Positions 1 to 18,048 of a stretch of DNA of 20,000 bases are shown here, piece after piece. The notes under the pieces are model-generated. The model saw only the letters and a program-made list of their open reading frames with translations. It was not told where the DNA came from and made no database searches. The stretch spans positions 60,870 through 80,869 of the forward strand of contig MU271301.1 of the NCBI GenBank assembly GCA_021432655.1, given 5' to 3'. The translations under genes and the position numbers were made by a program. Each line of letters starts with the position of its first letter. The first letter of the stretch is position 1. This DNA comes from Atractiella rhizophila. Taxonomy: Eukaryota.

Positions 1-3000
1 CGCTGTATAAGCCGACAGGCGGAGGGTGATCGCCAGCTACAATCCCTTTTTAGTACTCTCATTCTTGCGCATCAAATAAAAGATTTACTTTGATCATAAA
101 TGGGCATCTGAAATCCCCACCTATCTTCGTCGCCGCTAAACATCGAAGTCGTATCAGAACCTCCATATTGTGACCCTTCGAAGATTTCAGAGTTGACGCC
201 AGCATGGAAATGTTTAGTCCCGAAAGCTTTCTCAGCTTCCCTCTTCCTCTTTTCCTTCCTCAACCTGGTCCTTTCCCAGTCTTCCCATCTCCTCAAAGGG
301 ACCGTGTCCGAGCTCACAGTTCCACTATCATCACCATGTCCTTTATCTTTCCCTTCTCCTGCCACTTTCCTCGTCTCTCCCCAAGAGAAATCATCGAAAT
401 GCCAGAATGAATACACCGGTAATATCTGATAACGAAACTCAGTGAATACCCTTTTGACAGAACAAGAGAAACTTGGCGTACAAAGTTCCACACCGGCAAA
501 GCCAAGAGATAGATGAACATCCACAGGATATAGACAATTTTTCTAGTTGTCAATAAGATTAAAACTGCAGGCAGTCCCAAAACTGCCCCGAGTAGAAGTA
601 GTGGTATAGCGTCTGCGAAGTTGTTGGGGGGATTGAGGATGTAGTTGACGATAAGTGTGTAAGTGAGGGAAATAGCGACAGGTAGAACGACTGTCCCGAT
701 TAGTTCCATAAAGACGACGAACTGCATCGAGAAGCAAAAAGTTCCACAAAGATTCGGTACGCGCACTAGCTCCATAAGATTGTGAATAGTGGAATTGATC
801 CATCTCCTTCTCTGGGAGAGAAGGACTTTGAATTCGTCCGGCGCAATGGTTCGACACTTGGCCTGAGGACAGAACATCATCTTCCTATTGGGAAACGTGC
901 GGATCATGAGCGTTGTGAGGAATCGATCTTCACCAAGAAGGAGCAGGTTCTTTTGATGCAAAGTTGAGACCACGCTCTGACTGTATTCCAAACAGATTTG
1001 AGGTTGAACGAGAACGGGAATCCAATCGCCATCGTTGTTCTTTCGCGCTTTGAGTCGGTACATCGAGAAACAACCCGGAAGACAAGTCACACCGCCGAAA
1101 ACTGACTCGAAACCTTTCGCCAGATGATGGGAAATGAAATACCTTCAAATCTTGTCAGCATCGCAAGAATAAAATAGCGGAGGGACACACTCAAAGACCT
1201 GAATAGCCGTAACCCAGGACTGTCGCTTGTTTGCAATTCTTGTCTCTCCGCACACGCCCATGATGGTGCTATCATGCTGGCAACAATTTACGAGGTGTTT
1301 GATAGAGTCTCTGTAGACCTTAGTATCGGCGTCAACCTAACATTGCGTATTCACCATCAGCAACTGTTCAAGTTATGTAAGGTCCGCACGCACCATTAGG
1401 CAAACCTCAAAGAAATCAGGGGTAACACCCATGAGCGCATTAGTTTTCCGGAAGAGATCGTAGTCCAAAGGCGTCATCCGATCATTGTAAGTGACCCGAG
1501 AAAAGAAATTCATGAGCACCATTTGCGAGTCCCTCTTTCCCCTGTTCCCTGGCTTCGCTTCGTGAGCTTCTTCGGGTGGTCCGCATTTTACAATGACGAC
1601 TATTGGTGTCCTGTGACCTTTGACCCTAGCTGCTCTCAGCAAAGGCCATCAGTCACATCCCAAACATGCGAGAAAAGGAAATCGGCGCACTGTAATGACC
1701 AGCATAAACCTTCGCCATATTATGAGCCTTTTTTCCAGCTCCAACAGCACCATAGCTCATCGGCTGCGGGTCTCTGAACCTCGAATCAACCTCAATCATG
1801 TTGACAACGATATCGGGAGTGGACATCTTCTCTCCGCTTCCCGTAATGAGACCGTCGCAAACAACAAAGATCAGCTTTCGGGCATCAGAATAGTCTGAAG
1901 CGGCAATGGAAGAGAGGGTGTTGCCGATTCCTTCTTCTCCCTCCGAATAACAAGTGACGAGCGCGACGCAGAAAAGTTCAGCACCAATGGAAGCCATAGA
2001 GATGAGTCCGTTCTGGTCCAGCGCTTGAACCGAGCCCTCTTTCCCACCCTTGACCAGTTTGTTGTGTTTCTGTGCCTTGGGACCCACCCATGGCGCCGCT
2101 CCATTCTTATTTCCCACGTCAATGTTGGCGCCTTCAGGCATGACAGCTGGCGAGATAACGTTCCGCTTGAGATTCCTGGGAGGCTTGACGAGTGTTTCAG
2201 AAAGGAACCAGTTGAAGACACAGGCCATGGCGAAGCGGGCAAGAACGATGGAGAGGATGACGAAGAGGGAAAGGTAGAGGAAGAGCTGAGAGACGAAACA
2301 GCCTGGTGTTATTTTGTCGATATGTCCCGCGTAATATTTGTCGGAGAGGCAGTCCATGGCGGGTTTGAGCTCATTGGAGGAGACGAAGAGACGGGTCGCG
2401 TCTTTGCCGCTGGAGGGGTCCATGGTTCGAAGAACGAAGCGGATGGCAGTGTCCACTGGATCGTTTGGTATGGCTTGAGGGACGGCAGCCATGTAAGGAG
2501 CTAAATTGAGGACGTTCCCATCGAGGACCAAGAAATCGGTCTCGTTTGCGACTCCATCCCAATCATATCCCGGCTCCTTCGTCACATTCTGCAATCCCAA
2601 GGCCGCGAGGTTCGAGAAGCTGAGATCTCCAGCCGCACATGAGGCGAATTGAGATGTACTCGAGTTGGCGCACAGGTTGGCGGTGGCGTAGCGAGCGGTA
2701 TTGCCAGCGCATGAGGGGTATGTCACCTTGGTACGGTCGAACAGTGCGGTGATATCCAGCCCGCTCTCTTGATTGGCGAGCTTGGCGAAATCTACTCCTG
2801 CCACCGGTTTCGATCCTGTGGTATTGAAGAGCCAGCCGTTGATGCCTACGAGACCGGGGAGGGATCCCAACCTGACGTATTCCGCTGGTCCGTGATTGCT
2901 CGAGTTGGGGCAGAGGACGGCCGATAAACCGATGGTGACGAAACCCACGATGCCTCCGAGGAGCAGAGCGATGGTACAAAGAGCCACCTTTTCTCTCCAA

Positions 3001-3422
3001 GCGCGTTGGGTAGGCAAGTCCTTCATTCCCCCGATCCAGTCAAGCAAGAACGGAGGAGCCCACCAAGTGCAGCAGTAGGAAAAGAAGGTCCACGGCTTGA
3101 ACCACCCATCGTCGTCTCCCTTCATTTTGGAGATGGGAACCGGCATCTGTTGCTGACCGAGCGCTTGGGTGGGATTGATGAGAGGTGCAGGGGTGACATG
3201 GCGTTCCGGACGAGTGAGGGTCTTGCCTCTCGTCAGCTTTCGCTGGTAAGGGTTATTCTGGACGCCTATGAACGTCTTGCTCCTGTCTACTCCTGCGCCA
3301 GAGTTATTGGAAGCTGCTCCAGGCGGGCGTCGACGGCCGACGGGCTCTGGAGGAGGCTCATTGAGGAAGTGCGGACGATTAACGAGCGTAGTTGAGGAGT
3401 TGTTGGACAAGGGTATTGACAT
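1..3422 (-). CDS. Chitin synthase, class IV type (yeast Chs3-like); multi-exon, 3' end continues beyond the window
   Basis: Spliced ORFs give [63 protein letters not shown] and [12 protein letters not shown]. No myosin-motor domain. Short GT-AG introns at about 1630-1690, 1337-1390, 1145-1198 and 426-480. Confidence 0.95.
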
Positions 3423-3584
3423 CTTCAGTCACGCCCTTCAACTTCAGTCTGCGTGAATTATGAAATGTGAGAAATAAACACTTTACTTAAGAAATGGAGT
3501 AGGCGAAGGGCGAAGGAGTGTTGGTGGTTTGGATGTGCATCAATTTAGCCGTGGCAAGTTTCTAGTCTCAACGTTTCAACCACG

Positions 3585-3942
3585 ATGCATCCTGCGCTAT
3601 CCGAAAGACACAAGGGTATTATTATTATTACATTTACTTTGGCTATCTCTCTGCTGACGAGTATTGCCTTCAGTGTGTGCTCCATACATCCAGGCCCTCG
3701 AAGAGTGCCACCAAAATTTTCTCAAGACTTACACTGGAGGCTGCAACGACGTGAAGCAGGAGCTCAATCTCTGCTTACGGCGTTTGGTATGTCTTCTCAA
3801 TTCAGCTTAACAGGGACGGTAGGAGTGACTGCGAGCGTGGTAGCGGCTCGAACGAACGAGGGTGAATATTGAGAAAGGCCGGGAGAAGCGACGACAGCTC
3901 GAGGAAAAGTGGCGGCAGAACGAGCTTGAGGCTACTCCTTAA
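3585..3942 (+). CDS. CMC2: Twin CX9C mitochondrial intermembrane-space COX assembly protein (Cmc2-like), about 80 aa, 3 exons
   Basis: Exons 3585-3615, 3674-3786 and 3844-3942 (GT-AG introns) splice to MHPALSERHKVCAPYIQALEECHQNFLKTYTGGCNDVKQELNLCLRRLRLERTRVNIEKGREKRRQLEEKWRQNELEATP*. It has the MHP-L start and two exact CX9C motifs typical of the Cmc1/Cmc2 family. Confidence 0.88.
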
Positions 3943-4060
3943 TCCAGTCCTTAATCCCCTCTTAGCTCGTCCATTCTCTTCGTCAGTGTATTTGTATCAC
4001 CAGGAATTAGGTCATGTATTCTATACGTATCTCAGCTCATCATCCACGTACAAAGTGGCA

Positions 4061-5146
4061 TCACGAGAATATATTCCCCCACATCATGAAGAATCCGACA
4101 ATAAACACCAGCACCGCCAAATCATCCAACACCCCCGAGAGAAGGGTCCAGTAACGTCCTCCTGTATTAAGCGCTACAGCCAGTTGAGGAGGAAGGTGAG
4201 GAGTTATAGCCGCCAGTAAGGTGGGAGGAGCGAATTGATTCTGCTCATGTGCACCTGTCAGTTCAGGAATGGGAGCAGCGCAAAACACGTACTCGATTCA
4301 TATAGTAACGAGTGGATTGTAGCACTACTTCAAGAGTTGCAAACATGGCGAGCATGGGCTGTCCCATCAACCATCAATGCAGTCAGAAGCAAATTCAAAC
4401 ACCATGAGTCCCGAGCAAACAACGCACCACCTTCCCAACTGCTCCTTCTAATCCGACACTGGGTCTCTCCCACCTCAATCCTTTCCACCTCTTCATATTT
4501 CCCTCTTCTCCGACCACCAACGCGCTCACTGGCTCTAGTACCATGGCGGCATACAACCCCAAAGCAGCAACGAGCAAAAAGTGTACGAGCTCATAAGCCA
4601 CCCTCCCCAGGGTTGGGCGTTCCTTCGGGCGTGGCGGACCTGAAGAGGTTCCGTTGGCGAAATTGAGGAGTTGTTGGAGGGGATTAGCGGCGTCCATTTG
4701 AGGTAGTGGGAAAGGGAATTGCGGCGATTCTGTCCCTCCAGCTCCTCCTCCTCCCGCTGTAGGCGTGATCGTATCGAACATGGAAGGGGTCGGCATGAAC
4801 GACGACGTGTCCCCAACGAATGAATCGCCAAACACTCTCGAACTTCGTAAGCTCTCGTCTCCTGAACCACCTGCTGCACTCCAACTCCTGGAAATGTCTA
4901 CTTCTCCTGGATCGGAAACGTCTTCACTCGCAAGTGCTCCGCTCGCTCGTGGAGTTGATGGTGGATGCTCTATGCAACTTGAAATTGTACCCACCGAAAC
5001 ACAGGAAAACACTCACGTGTATACAAAGCAGCGTCCTCCCCTGGTCTCCCTGAGCCTGTAATCCTGGCTAAACGGTCGTTGCCCTTCGCTAGCAGCCTTG
5101 CTTTCCGCGCCTCAGCCTTTGCCCTTTTCTCTTCGCTCGTAGACAT
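4061..5146 (-). CDS. GET2: GET complex receptor subunit Get2 / CAML-like ER membrane protein, multi-exon
   Basis: Basic N-terminus MSTSEEKRAKAEARKARLLAKGNDRLARITG resembles the Get3-binding helices of Get2/CAML. Then DPGEVDIS, a long low-complexity linker and three C-terminal hydrophobic segments (LVHFLLVAALGLYAAMVL; MLAMFATLEVVLQSTR; DDLAVLVFIVGFFMMW). First intron 4970-5016. Confidence 0.8.
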
Positions 5147-5251
5147 TTCGTCGCTAGTCGTTCGCCCTCTCCCAAATCCGACCGCCTTTACGTGTGCCTC
5201 AGCCACCGCGACGACGAAGCAGCTTAATATTTTGGGTAAGACAGTTGGATA

Positions 5252-6716
5252 ATGGCACCTGCCGAGCTCGCATTAGAAAGTACACTACAGAACGTCTTAG
5301 ATGCTAAAGACCTGCGTACGTCGTTCCCTCTACCTCGCTGGATGTGTGGTTCACCAGTGATCGAAGGCTGGATATTCTGCGGTTAGCTGCTTGTCTGTCT
5401 GTGATGAGCTCTTCATAACGTCTCCTATGAGTTTAGGAGGGAAAGGAGGAGTAGGTGCGCGGTTGTCTCTCTCTCTAGCTTTTCGCTAGCTAAGACAACG
5501 GCTCAGGCAAAACGACGACATCATGCTCGCTTGCTGTACAGCTCGCAAAAGTTCGAGACTCCGTTCTTCTGATGTGCCATCTCTCCTCACGTCTGTACGC
5601 CATACTGAATAATACGAATAGCTCGACAGATCCTGCACACAACCTTTCGGACGCCTTCTCGCAGAAATTCGGCAAGGAAGCTACACTTGTTAATGGATTC
5701 AACAACCTTTATGCGATGGAAATCGATCCAACCTCTTCCATCCGAGAGATGGTATTGCAAGGTTTGTACCTTACATTGCGTAGCGAATAATGGATAACAA
5801 TATGAACAGCGGATCAGAATGGTGCTATGGGCACAATCATGCAAGACCTTGCGTTTGCCATTCCTGGAATCGATGAAGCCATGGGATTTGCAGAAATCAT
5901 GAAGTACGCATGTCATCTGTCTTCTGCCTCGCACTTTGCTAACAACTACACCCCAGGCACGTCAAATCGATGGAATTTTCAGTCATTGTCTTCGACACAG
6001 CACCTACTGGCCACACCCTTCGCTTCCTCTCTTTCCCCTCCGTCCTTGAGAAGGCACTTGCGAAGCTCTCAACGTTGTCTGGACGGTTCGGACCGATGAT
6101 GAACCAGATGATGGGCATGATGGGCATGGGAGGAGAAGGTGGAAATCCGACTGAGGATATGTTTGGCAAACTAGAGCAGATGAGAGGCGTTATTACCGAG
6201 GTTAACACCCAGTTCAAGGATCCCGTACGTTTTCTATGCTTCCTCTGCTAGAATAGACTGATTGGGGTATGCATGGGAACAGGATAAGACGACATTCATC
6301 TGTGTTTGCATTTCAGAATTTTTATCCCTCTATGAGACAGAACGTCTCATACAAGAGTTAACGGCGTACGAGATTGATACCCACTGCATCGTGGTCAATC
6401 AACTCCTCTTCCCGAAACCAGGTCCGCACTTCCCTTCCTTTCCAGCGCCGGCTAATGTGAGAATGGGACAGGAACGAATTGCGAACATTGCTCCGTTCGT
6501 AATGCGATGCAGCTAAAGTATCTTGACGAGATTCACGATTTGTACGGAGAGGATTTTCACGTTGTCAAGATGCCCCTATTAACAGAAGAAGTACGTGACT
6601 CTCCTTTGCCTTTTCTAACTATGACAACTCATTTTACATCGGTAAAGGTGAGAGGCGTGGAGAAAATCAAGAGTTTTTCAGAAATGCTGATTAAGCCATA
6701 CGAGCCACCGAAGTAG
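5252..6716 (+). CDS. GET3: Get3/ASNA1/TRC40 ATPase for tail-anchored protein targeting, multi-exon
   Basis: Spliced product contains [20 protein letters not shown] (deviant Walker A), [47 protein letters not shown] and the CEHC (CxxC) zinc dimerisation motif. Ends YEPPK*. Confidence 0.96.
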
Positions 6717-6901
6717 ACACTGTTTCGATGCTCATATTTTGGAATTCACACGGCGCCTTTCCTTTCCGTATCAGTAGCTTCCCAGGTTTGTTTAGAAACT
6801 CCCAATGCCAATGCATAAAACAATAAATATCACTTCCTTCGACAAATAAACAGTTTTTAACAGCCCTCTTACTTAGAAACCAAGATAAGTTAGCTGTCTC
6901 C

Positions 6902-8932: not shown

Positions 8933-10543
8933 TTACAAAGCTGACGTACATTCGGTCAACTTTCCTACCAAGTTTCAAGATAGAGACACTCACCAGACGC
9001 TCCGGTAATGATATCCACCAACTCGTTGGTAATGGCACCCTGTCGCTTGGTGTTGAACTGCATTTGCAAGCTAGTAATCATCTCTCCAGCGTTCTTGCTA
9101 GCATTATCCATAGCGTTTCTTCTGGACGAGATCTGCAAACTGTCTGTTCATGTATGCCGAGAAAAACGAGGGAGGTATACGAACTTCAGAGGCGTGTCCC
9201 TCAACCAGAGCTGTGAACACCAGGTTCGCCAAGCTGAAAGAAATGAGGTCTTTAGCAAGCTCGTCATCCTCAACTTCATAAGCGGAGAAAGCGGGCGAGT
9301 TCTTGAGCGCATCGACGGACGAAATGGTCAGAATGTCGGACTCGAAGGAGATAGCCGAGATGAATTTATTGTAAACAATTTTGACCTGCACACCAATTCA
9401 AGCGACACCGCAAGCTCCAAAAGAGCGATGCAACGCACGACATCGTATTCTAAGCCCTGAGTGGTGATCAACTCGGCAACTGCCAAAGCGTCCTCAAACG
9501 ACGGAACGGCACGGCCAATTTGATTGACAGAGAAGGCCAATTTCTCAGGGACGGAACGACCAAGTTGCGCTTTGGGCTTGTCACTATACATAGGTCAACT
9601 TAGTGTCCTGTCTCAAAAAAAAGATAACCAACCAAAGAACAACAATTGAAAACCCCCCCTAACCCCAACAAACCCCCTCCCCCCCCCCCTGGAAAAAAAA
9701 GAAAGGAAAACAACCCAAAAAACCCCGGCCCCTGAAAACCTGGGCCAGCAATTTCATTCTCCACGACATACCATTGGTTGAAAACTTACAACAATGTAAA
9801 GGGTCTTCTGACCGTCCTTAGTTTCTGGAGGTGGAATCGACTGGAAGATAGCGGTGCTAGCAGCTCCGTAGCCCTTGGCTTCTCGCATCGCCTTTTGAGC
9901 CTTGTTGAGACGAGTAGTGGCAATCATCTTCATGGACTTGGTGATCTTTTCAATGTTCCTGCGCACACCAGTCAGGTCAGCCTCCGGCACTGTTCTTACA
10001 CCATCGAAAAGGGAAGAGTGATCCCTGGATAAGGAGAATTTATGATGCTGCAGGTGAGAAATGTACCGAGCAAACCAGGTGTAGTTCCCGACTTTGCAAA
10101 CATTAGAATGCTCTTGGCAGGGCAGGAGTGGCTACTGGGTACCAGCATTCGTGTATGCCTCGCACGCGACAATGATCTTAAACATTCGTACCATGTAGAA
10201 TGCCTTCAGACTAGTGTGTCAAGCTTCCTTTTTAACGGAAAAATGTTGTCGTCACCAGCACCAGTTTGGCGCCAGCCGCATCTTTGCAATGACGCCTTTC
10301 GTCCGTCAATTTAAGTTTCTTTCATAGAGCAACAGAATAGGAGTAGTCCAAGTCTCCTGCGACACCATGCTGAGAGATAAGAACGACATACTTGACAGAC
10401 CGAATCCTGCTCTCCAACTCCTTCAGGGTCGCCGCGGCGACTGGGGAAGCGGAAAAGTTCCTCCTGCCGGCGACTGAGGCATGAGTGAAGAGTATGCCAG
10501 CCTGGCGGGAGAGTGCGGGGGTAGGACGAAGGAGCGGGAGCAT
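8933..10543 (-). CDS. ATP3: Mitochondrial F1 ATP synthase gamma subunit, multi-exon
   Basis: Presequence-like [14 protein letters not shown]..., then [61 protein letters not shown] and [19 protein letters not shown]. One internal exon (about 9630-9739) is corrupted in this assembly. Confidence 0.95.
9959..10391 (-). ncRNA. Candidate intron-encoded structured RNA(s), possibly H/ACA snoRNA, in the 433-nt first intron of ATP3
   Basis: The intron is about 8x longer than its neighbours. It has several stem-loops, one of which pairs only on the sense strand via G-U (10255-10275). An ANANNA box lies at 10317-10322, and ACA triplets follow hairpins at 10244-10246, 10062-10064 and 9991-9993. Family not identified. 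Confidence 0.45.
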
Positions 10544-10647: not shown

Positions 10648-13600
10648 ATGACTTCTTCTTCGCTCAGCTACAGCTCTTCAGAGTATCCTAGAGGGCTCCT
10701 AGACTCACGCCCAGACAGCACATTTATCCCCTCCAGCTCCCTCTTACGCTCTATAGAGTCGCCCGTCCCTGAACTCGAAGTTCAAGAGGTGTGTATCTCA
10801 CATTCCCGCTGTAAATATGGACTAAGCTGGGTTTTAGGTGACGGAATGGGGGGAGAAATTCTGGTCAGTCAATTTGGAAGCAGAAAGAACGAAATCGAAC
10901 GAGTTACAGGTGTCTGGTAGAGGACCCGATAACGAAGAATACATTCTACGCAAACCCCACAACGGGAGAGTGTAAATGGGATGCAGAGCCTGGTATGATG
11001 GTCGTACCTAGACCTCCAAATGGTGAATGGGTGAGTGTCTTTCATGTCTGACTAGCAAGATATTGAGGGAGCGCGTTGAAAGTGGGAATTACTTGGTGAG
11101 TTCTGCGCATAGCTCGCTCCGTGCAGCCATGACGGGGGTTCCGTCAGATGATCGCCGGCATTGCCTTTATTATTATAACTCGAAATCAGGTGCGTTTCAC
11201 CCCTCCTCGTGCTGTATTCGCTAAGATTGGATGTTCAGGCGAGACGAGTTGGCAGAAACCAAAAGGTGAAATCATGTATTGTTTTGATTGGTGGAATGCG
11301 CTCACCTTGAATCAGGACTTATAATACCGATGATTCAAATCCAACAGTCCGCCGGTGTGAAACGCTTCTCACAGACGCTCTTTTCCTCTTCCTTCGGGGG
11401 CCATGGGTCCCAGCCCTCACAAGACATACATTCTTCTGGCCATAGACCCGTACCGCCCCTAGATTCCCCTAGTCCAAGTGATGTGGAGATGCTAGCTTCC
11501 GTCCCCAACACGCCCAGTGGCTCAGAATTCCCAAGCGAAGGAACGAGCTCTCGATACCCATCTGGGACCCAAGCATTCACTAGACGGCGGCTCCACAACA
11601 ATTCCATTGGATCCTCATCCTTTTTCAGTACCGACGATCAGGATCATGGTGATGCAGTTATTGAACAGATTCAACCGTCTCGAATACCACCTCCGCCGTT
11701 ACCACGCAAATCATCCACACGATTTACCAGATACTCGATGCTCCAGAATCTCACAGCCATAAACGAAGAATCAGGCTTGCATTCACCTCCGCTGAGGGAC
11801 CCATCTCTCCCTTCTTCTCCAGCTTTGTCAAGTGCTGAACGAGATCCACTTCATAATCTCAGTATCCGTGACGCAATCGCGTCTCCCACCTCGGGTGTGT
11901 TGTTTAAGCTCTTGCTTTTTGTACTAATTCTCGGATAGAAATTTCATCTTGGTCACAGTCAACATCTGTCGTCCGTTCCAAACGATTAAGCACGGGTAAC
12001 CACCCGATCATGTCCTCTGACCTCCAAGCTGCAATCGCCGAGTTCAGGTTTGTTGATGCTGATGCATTCCAAATCTTGCGCTGACAAGGAGGCACAGTAT
12101 TGACGGATTTGCCAAACGATATTTTGCAAGCCGGAAACGTGGACTATTCCGACGGGAAGTACCTCTCGAAGAGCTGATGCGATTTCAAAAGAGTCCACTC
12201 TCTGCTCCGTTGCTCGTAATTAGGAAAGATAGAAGACAGGATGCTCTCGTATGCCATTTTCTTCCCACCAGACAGACAAGAGATTTATGGTGAATCATTT
12301 TAGAAAGCTTTTAAGTCGGTCCAAAGGGTGATGGGCGACCGCGATTCGCTCTGGAAAGGAAATTCGTCAAGTCCCCGGTCACCACGAGGACGTCCTTCCG
12401 ATGTCACTGCTTCCTCATCTGAAACCATCGATAGCGAAGCCGCAGAACCTTGGGAGGGGACAGTACTAGAGGAAGCCCGTTACCTGGTTGGTCTAGGAAT
12501 CGAACATCCAGAGCTTCGTTAGTATCTTCTCCATCAAACGAGACTAGCGTTAATGAGGTGACAGGTGATGAGCTGTATGCTCAACTGCAAAAACAGCTTT
12601 CAAGCAATCCGAGTTATCTATCGTCCTTCAGAGGCTGGCGTTTGCTATGCGTCTTCTTGTCAACTTTTGCTCCTTCCAAACAACTCGAGGGTTCGTTGCG
12701 CAGCTTCATTAACAGCTTCGCGACGGTCAAAGAGCTGCGAATCGACGTCGTCAGCCAATATTGCCTTCATCTCCTCAACTTGATTTCTGAACGTGGATCC
12801 CGAGGCAGGGTACCCTCGAATCAAGAAATGTCTGCCGTTCCCCACCATCTCATTATTAATCCTGATGTGTTTTTGATGGATGCAGTTCTTTTTCAAGTGA
12901 ATCTGCATTTTCTCCGAGCACCTTCGGAGAATCACTTGTCAGTTCTATGAAGATGCAGGAAGCTTATTATCCGAGCGCTCGCGTGCCCGTGATCCTCCCA
13001 TTTCTCGCAACAACCATCATTAATTTGGGAGGAATGACGGAAGAAGGCATCTTCCGGCATTCGCCCGACGCGGAGGCTCTTTTTCTTTGGCGTTTACGCA
13101 TCGATCGTGGGGACTACAGCTATCAGCCTGAATATGGCGATGTGCACGTAGCTTCCAGCTTGTTGAAGTTGTATCTGCGCGAGCTAAAAGACGTAAGCTG
13201 TCTCTTCTGACAAGCACCGAGGCTCATTGCTCCTCCAAGCCTTTGATCCCATCTCATTTGTATCAACGTTGTATCGATGCCTGCGATGACATTCCAAGAA
13301 TTGTGAAGTTAGTGCGGTAAGTAAAATTCTGCTGAGAGAGAAGGAGTTGACGTTCACGAACCTAGAAATCACTTTCCAGTCATAAACCAACGCGTCCTAG
13401 CCTTCATGACCAAGTGAGTCCACACACGGTCAGTAACAATGAACCTCTGAGACGATGCTTGTTTGGGACAGTTTCCTACAGTTGTTTTTAGAACCTCAAG
13501 TCGTCGCTGCCACGAGGTTAAATGCACAAAGTACGTTCATTGTCTTCTATTATGCTCTTCTCATCCTCCCCAGGCTTGGCCATGATCTTTGCCCCATCGT

Positions 13601-13886: not shown

Positions 13887-15771
<1,885 letters not shown>

Positions 15772-15916: not shown

Positions 15917-17025
15917 ATGTCAATGGAGGATTTGATAAGGCGAGCGAGGGAGAGCATCTCTAGAACAAGGAACATTGGCATCCCCCAGCTAAGGAATTGT
16001 TCTGGACCATCCTCTTTACACACCGAGCTCACCCAATCATTGAGAAAGGAGTTGCAAGATGTCAGGGATCTTACTCAGGTGTGTTTCTTGCCTTTATACG
16101 CGTCTGGGTAAAGAATGTGTCGTTCTGTAGAGCATGGCATCCGTGGTGTCAGAATTGCCACCTAAAGAACAAAAGTCACGCTGGGATACCCTGTCAATCA
16201 TCGAGCAGGAGCTAGATGAGTGGGTGTCTTTCTCTGCAGTGCATCGATTCCCGGCTCACTGTTCAGGCAGGGTGAACAAGCAGATGCGCTCTGCTGCGTT
16301 GGCATCGAAGAGACGAATTGACTCTCAATCTGCGGCTGAGGCAAGAAACATTCTGTTTCATTCTAGCAAGGCGAAGCCAACAACAAGGTTCGTTTTTCAG
16401 TGCCTTTTGCGAGGGCCGCTATAATGTTTGAGATTACAGCTCGACAAACGATGATGCACTCATGTCCGCCACGTCAGAGGTCACAAATCGGCTTCAAGAA
16501 GCTGTGGCCTTGATGCAGCAAGAGCTTGATCGGTCCTTGCTTTCTACGCAGATGTTGGGTACAAAATGCCTCGCATGATATGCCATTTCTGACCACAGTG
16601 TTGTAGACCAATCCACATCCACGCTCCGTTTGACTGCCGAACAGCATTCAACGCTTTCCGGGTTGCTCAGTGCTTCAAAAGGACTTATCACCGATCTAGA
16701 AAGAGCTGATCTCTTAGACCGTTTTATCCTCATCGGTGGCCTTCTCCTCTTCCTGGCCTGTTGCGCCTACGTGTTCAACAAGCGCATTGTTCGCAAAGCA
16801 ATTGCTCCTTTTATTTCCGCCGAATCGGCGACGAAAACCCTCTCAGCCATTTCATCCATCGCCTCGTCCTCTTCGACCTTACTGGCAACCTCGTCCAGCC
16901 TCAGTCCAACACTCTCAAAACACTTAGAAAGCTCCGTAACTCAGGAACCTCCGCCGATTGCAACCGCTTCTATCGCTTCTGTCTTCTCTTCTGCAGACTC
17001 GCCAGGACAACATGTGGAGCTTTGA
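15917..17025 (+). CDS. SEC20: ER Qb-SNARE Sec20/BNIP1, multi-exon (start may be 15923)
   Basis: SNARE-like exons (DALMSATSEVTNRLQEAVALMQQELDRSLLSTQML|DQSTSTL...SKGLITDLERADLLDR), a TM helix FILIGGLLLFLACCAYVF followed by KRI, and a Ser/Thr-rich luminal tail ending HVEL (HDEL-like, as in yeast Sec20). Confidence 0.88.

Positions 17026-17115: not shown

Positions 17116-18048
<933 letters not shown>

What the first reader, a model, noticed from the sequence alone, without database searches (positions are those of the whole stretch)
4061..6716. GET2 and GET3 sit head-to-head across a 105-bp divergent spacer
Seen: the GET2-like ATG (5146, minus) and the GET3 ATG (5252, plus) are only 105 bp apart. 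Known: Get3 delivers tail-anchored proteins to the ER Get1/Get2 receptor, Get2's basic N-terminus binds Get3 directly, and the genes are unlinked in S. cerevisiae and human. Inference: a shared bidirectional promoter may couple the amounts of ATPase and receptor, forming a non-metabolic two-gene cluster. The linkage could also help find poorly conserved Get2 orthologues by synteny. Caveat: other divergent pairs here are similarly tight (104-211 bp), so the functional pairing is the signal, not the distance.
Basis: partly seen in the sequence, partly recalled or inferred. Interest (0 to 1): 0.75.

Follow-up and report, generated by a model that had tools for sequence, protein, structure and literature searches.

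The report
GET2 and GET3 genes head-to-head
In this fungus the gene for the Get3 targeting ATPase and the gene for its membrane receptor subunit Get2 really do sit back to back 105 bases apart, but the arrangement was absent from every other fungus that could be checked, so it looks like a local accident of gene order rather than a conserved cluster.

Summary
The window is Atractiella rhizophila nuclear DNA. A 4-exon minus-strand gene (4061-5146) gives exactly the 305-aa database protein P0001. That protein passes Pfam GET2 at 34 bits against a cut-off of 25.5. A 10-exon plus-strand gene (5252-6716) gives exactly Get3 (P0002). The two ATGs are 105 bp apart. RNA-derived contigs confirm 10 of the 12 introns as clean joints; GET3 introns 1-3 appear as one gap holding the two micro-exons. 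Together these contigs cover nearly the whole spacer as 5'UTR.

GET2 and GET3 lie on different supercontigs in Microbotryum. They lie on contigs of different length in Tremella, Vararia and Sistotremastrum. Their accession numbers are not consecutive in Ustilago and four ascomycetes. A Get2 profile hit 0 of 79 environmental Get3 loci, 44 of which hold at least 1.3 kb upstream. That profile detected 80 of 81 held-out Get2 proteins cut into exon-sized pieces. Synteny is therefore no general route to Get2 orthologues. A shared promoter region is likely. Co-regulation and conservation within Atractiellomycetes are untested. Interest is low to moderate.

The parts
4061..5146 (-). GET2 gene. It has 4 exons (5146-5017, 4969-4428, 4358-4293, 4240-4061 including the stop) and introns of 47, 69 and 52 nt. 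The product is 305 aa, annotated only as 'hypothetical protein'.
   Evidence: The model equals P0001 exactly. All three introns are skipped in RNA-type contigs. Pfam GET2 PF08690 scores 34 bits against a cut-off of 25.5. The family profile hits PDB 8odu_C at 2e-11.
5017..5146 (-). GET2 exon 1. It encodes the basic N-terminal helix region (10 K/R in the first 35 residues, ending in the RLARITG motif), which is the predicted Get3-docking segment.
   Evidence: The exon alone hits Get2_like positions 4-35 and GET2 positions 4-36 weakly. The family profile aligns positions 1-36 to the yeast Get2 fragments crystallised with Get3, 3zs9_C at 4.9e-4 and 3sjd_D at 1.1e-3. R14, R25, L26 and T30 are (nearly) invariant in 49 relatives.
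4061..4670 (-). Part of GET2 that encodes the three hydrophobic segments (residues about 166-198, 219-238 and 276-305).
   Evidence: Kyte-Doolittle 19-residue window peaks are 2.05, 1.56 and 2.21. The region aligns to the membrane part of the solved Get2-Get1 fusion 8odu_C.
5147..5251 (.). The 105-bp ATG-to-ATG spacer. Almost all of it appears to be 5'UTR of one gene or the other, so it is the presumed shared bidirectional promoter region.
   Evidence: The GET2 RNA contig of X5 reaches 5226, and that of X4 reaches 5151. The GET3 RNA contig of X4 starts at about 5224-5227 (worked out from record positions and bin depth), and that of X5 at about 5240. Contig ends are only a weak hint of transcript ends.
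5252..6716 (+). GET3 gene. It has 10 exons and a 330-aa product, with the P-loop at residue 27 and CEHC at residue 272.
   Evidence: The model equals P0002 exactly. phmmer gives 1.4e-145 to Get3 structure 3ibg_A and 2.8e-143 to 8odu_A. ArsA_ATPase scores 77 bits on one exon. The motifs are shown.
5367..5454 (+). Two micro-exons of GET3 (5367-5381, 15 nt; 5437-5454, 18 nt) that split the coding sequence of the P-loop.
   Evidence: Contigs of X4 and X5 join 5316 to 5505 with 30 letters between that match the two micro-exons (table 5c). The model with them reproduces P0002.

Best explanation
These are the genuine single-copy-type GET2 and GET3 genes of Atractiella rhizophila, placed head to head in a compact genome. 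Get3 is the cytosolic ATPase that carries tail-anchored proteins. Get2 is the three-span ER receptor subunit, and its basic N-terminal helix docks Get3 (function inferred from family membership). Both genes are transcribed and spliced. Their 5'UTRs fill the 105-bp spacer, so initiation in both directions must come from one small shared promoter region. The adjacency itself is a lineage-restricted outcome of gene-order change. It is not an ancient or widely conserved GET cluster. Any coupling of expression is a plausible by-product that has not been shown to be selected.
For: Identity: Pfam GET2 scores 34 bits against a cut-off of 25.5. phmmer finds 168 relatives at E<=1e-3. All 14 proteins at E<=1e-5, the query P0001 among them, carry PF08690. 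The family profile hits solved Get2 chains. There are three hydrophobic segments. Get3 matches solved Get3 structures at 1e-145. Reality of the pair: the exon models reproduce the database proteins exactly. Contig joints support every intron, GET3 introns 1-3 together as one gap holding micro-exon letters, and a genomic contig bridges the spacer. The accession numbers are consecutive. Not conserved: in Microbotryum lychnidis-dioicae GET2 (MVLG_05243) is on supercontig 67 and GET3 (MVLG_00298) on supercontig 2. Get2 and Get3 contig lengths differ in Vararia minispora (14,101 vs 201,958), Sistotremastrum suecicum (70,455 vs 373,855) and Tremella mesenterica (1,223,319 or 572,165 vs longest 1,201,232). 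In Rhizoctonia solani a fused gene model puts a Brr6-like gene directly upstream of Get3 on the same strand. Get2 and Get3 accession numbers are far apart in Ustilago maydis, M. oryzae, Z. tritici, C. fructicola and N. crassa (S2 table of PMC12313070). A Get2 HMM hit 0 of 79 environmental Get3 loci better than E 0.37, while the four window exons scored 1.5e-19 to 7.5e-7. Of those loci, 44 hold >=1300 bp upstream, in 30 distinct groups. The HMM found 80 of 81 held-out Get2 proteins cut into 60-aa pieces.
Against: Only one Atractiellomycete genome exists (PMC13347111, passages read), so conservation inside the class could not be tested. No rust (Pucciniomycetes, a possible sister class) pair could be compared, because the P. 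striiformis accessions come from different assemblies. Contig-length and accession-number comparisons are proxies; only the accession proxy was validated, and only on the Atractiella pair itself. The environmental loci are unnamed and some may be non-fungal, where the HMM is untested. For one specific pair, a random-order chance of about 2/(gene number) is small (inference), so chance is not proven. I only argue that, among the many functionally linked pairs in a genome, a few adjacent ones are expected.
Confidence: 0.72

Rival explanations
1. The pair is a selected two-gene module. It arose in the Atractiellomycete lineage and is kept together because a shared bidirectional promoter co-tunes the receptor and the ATPase.
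For: The two products are direct binding partners in the family (solved complexes 3zs9 and 3sjd contain the matching Get2 fragment). The spacer is only 105 bp and seems fully transcribed from both sides. Both genes appear as RNA-type contigs in the same three runs. Fold of Get3 dimer with Get2 1-60 (ESMFold2; the handed-in alignments were not used): weak support, score 0.59 against best control 0.00. The mark was reached by 51 of 78 solved complexes and 2 of 108 mismatched pairs. At 0.60 or under it was reached by only 5 of those 78 solved complexes and by all 4 mismatches that passed (of 180). The runs agree in >=32% of contacts and the partner pLDDT is >=54. A like complex is solved, so the pass may come from memory.
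Against: There is no conservation in any other lineage checked. No expression correlation data could be obtained.
Confidence: 0.2
2. The minus-strand protein only resembles Get2 and is not the functional Get3 receptor subunit (a diverged paralogue, or another three-span ER protein).
For: The exons taken singly are below the Pfam cut-off. Get2_like/CAML PF14963 stays below its cut-off at 13.8 against 25.2. The strict 'four K/R in a row' feature described in PMC7817167 (passage read) is not met, because the basic residues alternate with alanines. The complex prediction gives only weak support.
Against: The whole protein passes the Pfam GET2 cut-off. It aligns end to end with 48 relatives whose members are named GET2 by UniRef. 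The profile hits both the N-terminal Get3-binding fragment and the membrane part of solved Get2. No second Get2-like protein of this species appeared.
Confidence: 0.04
3. The adjacency is an assembly artefact.
For: None was found.
Against: A genomic contig from a public run, differing at 14 of 1274 positions, spans 4618-5891. A GET2 RNA contig reaches 5226, which is 26 nt from the GET3 ATG.
Confidence: 0.01

Closest known systems
Fungal Get2 (Pfam PF08690; S. cerevisiae Get2 fragments in PDB 3ZS9/3SJD; Get2-Get1 fusion in PDB 8ODU/8ODV)
   Same: It has a basic N-terminal helix ending in an RL.KITG-type motif, a long low-complexity linker and three C-terminal hydrophobic segments. Pfam scores above the cut-off and the family profile hits these solved chains.
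   Different: Identity to the best non-self relative is only 33-39%. The basic residues are interspersed with alanines rather than forming an uninterrupted run. The gene sits head to head with GET3, which was not seen elsewhere.
Get3/TRC40 (ArsA-family ATPase; PDB 3IBG, 3IQW, 8ODU, 2WOO, 6SO5)
   Same: E-values are 1e-145 to 1e-121 over the full length. It has the P-loop GGKGGVGKT at residue 27 and CxxC at residue 272.
   Different: Nothing functional differs. The gene structure is unusual in having two micro-exons of 15 and 18 nt inside the P-loop coding region.
Divergent (head-to-head) gene pairs with bidirectional promoters that encode functionally linked proteins. Surveys: PMC1487180 and PMC2871058, seen only as search listing and abstract start. 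The yeast histone and GAL1-GAL10 pairs are recalled.
   Same: Two interacting partners are transcribed divergently from a spacer far under 1 kb.
   Different: The classic examples are conserved across many species, and this pair is not. No paper among those searched links GET2 and GET3 by position. One search found 0 papers. One search found 1 paper, seen only as listing and abstract start, on plant translocation systems. In one search none of the 10 listed papers holds the GET terms.

Membership tests
GET2 (Pfam PF08690) | Whole-protein score above Pfam's gathering cut-off | tested here: met
   The score is 34.0 bits against a cut-off of 25.5, E 3.3e-8, in two stretches. The database's precomputed annotation is also PF08690.
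GET2 (Pfam PF08690) | Positively charged N-terminal Get3-interaction motif | tested here: met
   There are 10 K/R against 4 D/E in residues 1-35. The family profile aligns positions 1-36 to the yeast Get2 peptides co-crystallised with Get3, at E 4.9e-4 and 1.1e-3. The strict form 'at least four R/K in a row' (PMC7817167) is not met.
GET2 (Pfam PF08690) | Three transmembrane segments at the C-terminus | tested here: met
   Three hydropathy peaks lie at residues 166-198, 219-238 (weak, 1.56) and 276-305. The region aligns to the membrane part of 8odu_C at E 2e-11. No dedicated TM predictor was run.
GET2 (Pfam PF08690) | Physical binding to Get3 | tested here: inconclusive
   Complex prediction gave weak support: score 0.59 against best control 0.00. 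The mark was reached by 51 of 78 solved complexes and 2 of 108 mismatched pairs. At 0.60 or under it was reached by only 5 of those 78 and by all 4 mismatches that passed (of 180). Contact agreement is >=32% and partner pLDDT >=54. A like complex is solved, so the pass may come from memory.
GET2 (Pfam PF08690) | Heterodimer with Get1 in the ER membrane; insertase activity | not testable with these tools
   No GET1 (CHD5/WRB) domain was seen among the window ORFs of >=80 aa scanned. No whole genome is held.
Get2_like / CAML (Pfam PF14963) | Score above the gathering cut-off | tested here: not met
   The score is 13.8 bits against a cut-off of 25.2, and only the N-terminal 8-59 matches.
Get3 (ArsA_ATPase PF02374, eukaryotic Get3/TRC40 clade) | Full-length similarity to solved Get3, with P-loop and CxxC dimer motif | tested here: met
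   E 1.4e-145 to 3ibg_A, and 26 distinct PDB sequences at E<=1e-20. The P-loop is at residue 27 and CEHC at residue 272. C272 and C275 are nearly invariant in 30 fungal Get3 proteins.
Conserved divergent gene pair (functional two-gene cluster) | The adjacency persists across lineages | tested here: not met
   The genes are unlinked in Microbotryum. By proxy they are not adjacent in Tremella, Vararia, Sistotremastrum, Rhizoctonia, Ustilago and four ascomycetes. A Get2 profile hit 0 of 79 environmental Get3 loci. Persistence within Atractiellomycetes was not testable.
Conserved divergent gene pair (functional two-gene cluster) | Co-expression beyond that of neighbouring pairs | not testable with these tools
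   Only Logan contigs were available, and their depth cannot rank genes.

The most novel reading that the evidence does not exclude
In Atractiellomycetes the Get3 chaperone gene and the gene for its receptor subunit Get2 have been captured under one roughly 100-bp bidirectional promoter. The arrangement is kept by selection, giving a natural system in which targeting factor and receptor are transcriptionally yoked.
Probability: 0.15. Interest if true: 0.45.

Novelty: new member of a known kind. Interest (0 to 1): 0.25.

Why it matters
The finding gives a correct name (GET2) to a protein filed as hypothetical. It also shows a tidy natural case of two binding partners sharing a promoter-sized spacer. 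The arrangement is confined to this lineage as far as can be seen. It therefore does not give a general synteny handle for finding the poorly conserved Get2/CAML orthologues, and it says little about how GET pathway stoichiometry is controlled in general. Its main use would be as a small experimental system for bidirectional promoter function in a basidiomycete.

Tried and rejected
1. UPRE-like motif. TACGTG at 5189-5194 in the spacer (the link to the unfolded-protein response is recalled) is not enriched. There are 8 matches in the window against 4.41 expected, and 17 of 200 shuffles reach 8. Several matches are intron donor sites. Dropped.
2. Earlier scan notes. 'Relatives' found nothing and the words search found nothing. 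The sequence search gave two unrelated prokaryotic ArsA/Get3 notes. None was used.
3. Own-genome search. No genome is held for this window.
4. Word-indexed search with the 49-sequence Get2 alignment. It returned only 14 proteins, mostly ascomycetes, so it was of little use for synteny.
5. Looking for the Get2 of Mixia, Phenoliferia or the Cystobasidiomycete, whose Get3 accessions I had. I looked up 17 further Get2 representatives and none came from those species, so no pair could be formed.
6. P. striiformis, B. cinerea, F. graminearum, F. oxysporum and Blumeria. Their Get2 and Get3 accessions come from different assemblies and were left out of the comparison.
7. X3 shows no cover over 4910-5414. 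A hole in contigs proves nothing.
8. Contig depths of the two genes look similar within each run, but depth cannot rank genes, so this was not used as co-expression evidence.
9. Fragment P0189 (exon 1 of a relative, 76% identical). Its 24 upstream residues do not reach any Get3 start, so it is uninformative.
10. My first splice guess for GET2 exon 2 (end at 4431) was wrong by 3 nt. RNA joints and P0001 put it at 4428.
11. Supplements of PMC4469406. The terms ArsA_ATPase and PF02374 were not found. GET3 was found by name instead.
Full report
WHAT IS THERE

The window is nuclear DNA of Atractiella rhizophila (Pucciniomycotina). Translating the largest minus-strand exon retrieves a 100% identical 305-aa protein, P0001, named 'hypothetical protein BT69DRAFT_1319037'. 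An exon of the plus-strand gene retrieves a 100% identical 330-aa protein, P0002, named 'arsenical pump-driving ATPase'. Both sit on a contig of 102,359 bp.

I built exon models from the sequence and corrected them with RNA evidence.
- GET2-like gene, minus strand: exons 5146-5017, 4969-4428, 4358-4293, 4240-4061.
- GET3, plus strand: ten exons from 5252 to 6716.

The two models translate exactly to P0001 and P0002.

TRANSCRIPTION AND ASSEMBLY

One call laid Logan contigs of four public runs on 3900-6900. Run X1 behaves as genomic DNA, with no intron-skipping joints. One of its contigs (1274 nt, 14 differences from the window) spans 4618-5891. The adjacency therefore exists in a second, slightly different copy of the locus.

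Runs X3, X4 and X5 behave as RNA.
- Their contigs skip all three GET2 introns.
- They skip six GET3 introns cleanly.
- They join 5316 to 5505 with 30 letters between. These letters are the two micro-exons (15 and 18 nt) that split the P-loop coding sequence.

A GET2 contig of X5 extends to 5226, which is 80 nt upstream of its ATG. The GET3 contig of X4 begins at about 5224-5227. I worked this out from record positions and bin depth; the first piece itself is not among the rows shown. Taken together, the whole spacer appears to be 5'UTR of one gene or the other. The tool warns that contigs cannot prove transcript ends, so this is only a hint.

IDENTITY OF THE TWO PROTEINS

Get2:
- P0001 passes Pfam GET2 (PF08690) at 34 bits against a cut-off of 25.5. 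Get2_like/CAML (PF14963) stays below its cut-off.
- Single exons give only sub-threshold hits, at the N-terminal and C-terminal ends of the GET2 model.
- An exhaustive phmmer search finds 168 relatives at E<=1e-3. The best non-self hit is 4e-25 at 33% identity.
- 49 of these relatives align end to end. R14, R25, L26 and T30 are (nearly) invariant in the N-terminal motif, and D286 in the last hydrophobic segment.
- The profile of that alignment hits the solved Get2-Get1 fusion 8odu_C at 2e-11. It also hits the two yeast Get2 N-terminal peptides crystallised with Get3: 3zs9_C at 4.9e-4 and 3sjd_D at 1.1e-3.
- Hydropathy shows three segments at residues 166-198, 219-238 and 276-305.
- Named members of the family include proteins that UniRef calls 'Golgi to ER traffic protein 2' or 'GET complex, subunit GET2'.

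Get3:
- P0002 matches solved Get3 structures at up to 1.4e-145.
- It has the P-loop at residue 27 and CEHC at residue 272.

Predicted complex: a fold of the Get3 dimer with Get2 residues 1-60 gave weak support. The score was 0.59 against a best control of 0.00. The mark was reached by 51 of 78 solved complexes and 2 of 108 mismatched pairs. At 0.60 or under it was reached by only 5 of those 78 solved complexes and by all 4 mismatches that passed (of 180). The runs agree in at least 32% of contacts, and the partner's pLDDT is at least 54. The handed-in alignments were not used. Because like complexes are solved, the pass may come from memory.

IS THE ADJACENCY CONSERVED?

No eukaryotic genome collection was on hand, so I used four indirect routes.

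(a) Accession numbers and contig lengths.
- Vararia minispora: Get2 is on a 14,101-bp contig and Get3 on a 201,958-bp contig.
- Sistotremastrum suecicum: 70,455 against 373,855 bp.
- Tremella mesenterica: Get2 is on contigs of 1,223,319 and 572,165 bp in two assemblies. The longest Get3 contig is 1,201,232 bp.

(b) Published tables.
- In supplementary file 2 of PMC4469406, Microbotryum lychnidis-dioicae GET2 (MVLG_05243, identified) is at 123,171-124,800 on supercontig 67. Its neighbours are a protein with no Pfam hit and an AMP-binding enzyme. 'ATPase GET3' is MVLG_00298, at 82,817-85,943 on supercontig 2.
- The S2 table of PMC12313070 lists Get2 and Get3 accessions that differ by thousands in U. 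maydis, M. oryzae, Z. tritici, C. fructicola and N. crassa, and by 823 in yeast. The orthologue calls are those authors'. Five further species in that table mix assemblies, and I left them out.

(c) Fused gene models.
- A Rhizoctonia solani model joins a Brr6-like domain directly upstream of Get3 on the same strand.
- An unnamed model joins a TPT transporter upstream of Get2.

(d) Environmental DNA.
- A scan of metagenome contigs with P0002 returned 79 loci with Get3 43-81% identical.
- 44 of them hold at least 1300 bp upstream, falling into 30 distinct groups at 97% identity.
- An HMM of the 49 Get2 relatives scored the four window exons at 1.5e-19, 3.3e-18, 8.9e-13 and 7.5e-7. It hit no locus better than E 0.37.
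- As a sensitivity control, 80 of 81 held-out Get2 relatives, cut into 60-aa pieces, had a piece at E<=1e-5. The one miss, P0200, also lacks a Pfam GET2 hit.
- The loci are unnamed, and many short ones are probably cDNA.

LIMITS

Passages of PMC13347111 read show that Atractiellomycetes is represented in phylogenomics only by A. rhizophila. The class is placed as sister either to Pucciniomycetes or to Microbotryomycetes. I could test Microbotryomycetes (negative) but no rust and no second Atractiellomycete. Fragments of apparent relatives exist: P0207 on a 1,947-bp JGI contig, and P0189 and P0191 from Logan. Their contigs could not be fetched.

READING

The genes and their layout are real, and the minus-strand gene is GET2. 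A shared promoter region is almost forced by the geometry. The adjacency is not an old or general feature of fungi or of Basidiomycota. It therefore cannot serve as a general synteny handle for Get2.

For one named pair, random gene order would give adjacency with probability of about 2 divided by the gene number (inference). A genome holds very many functionally linked pairs, so a few adjacent ones are expected. Without conservation or expression data there is no evidence of selection. I put 0.72 on 'real pair, lineage-restricted, coupling unproven' and 0.2 on a selected module within the class. The rest goes to 'not a working Get2' or artefact.

LITERATURE

No paper in the held library links GET2 and GET3 by position.
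- GET2 + GET3 + 'bidirectional promoter': 0 papers.
- Get2 + Get3 + synteny + tail-anchored: 1 paper, seen only as listing and abstract start, on plant translocation systems.
- A six-term search listed only general papers on divergent pairs, none holding the GET terms among the 10 shown of 49.

PMC7817167 (passages read) states that Get2/CAML conservation is confined to the basic N-terminal motif and three TMDs. This protein fits that description, except for the 'four in a row' form of the motif.

Noticed in passing
window 5367-5381 and 5437-5454: GET3 has two micro-exons of 15 and 18 nt, so the P-loop motif is encoded across three exons. RNA-type contigs from two runs carry both.
   Followed up: partly
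window 16579-17022 (+): An ORF piece hits Pfam Sec20 (49 bits). That Sec20 is a tail-anchored ER SNARE, and so a client type of the GET pathway, is recalled. The piece lies 10 kb from the GET pair, which is probably coincidence.
   Followed up: no
window 75-3428 (-): A multi-exon chitin synthase gene with a CHS4-like domain (Chitin_synth_2 up to 388 bits) lies beyond the 3' end of GET2. It may run off the window start.
   Followed up: no
window 9107-10131 (-), 12435-13207 (+), 15393-15725 (-), 17119-17391 (-): Pieces of an ATP synthase gamma gene, a MyTH4 + RhoGAP gene, a protein kinase and a Ras-family GTPase. The window is gene-dense.
   Followed up: no
window 4618-5891: The genomic contig of run X1 differs from the window at 14 of 1274 positions. 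Most of the differences lie in GET3 introns and the spacer region (table 3). It may be a second haplotype or strain.
   Followed up: no
P0207, P0189, P0191, P0003 (database proteins): These fragments look like Get2 exon 2, exon 1 and the C-terminus, and a 91%-identical Get3, of unsequenced relatives of Atractiella. They are the best material for testing whether the adjacency persists.
   Followed up: partly
P0170, P0090, P0099 (database proteins): Gene models fused with neighbours: TPT transporter + Get2, Brr6-like + Get3 (Rhizoctonia solani), and Get3 + PEBP (Antrodiella citrinella). These are likely annotation run-throughs.
   Followed up: partly
Microbotryum lychnidis-dioicae supercontig 2 (PMC4469406 supplementary file 2): GET3 (MVLG_00298) has a 1.5-kb neighbour with no Pfam domain, MVLG_00297, 295 bp away. 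Its identity was not checked.
   Followed up: no
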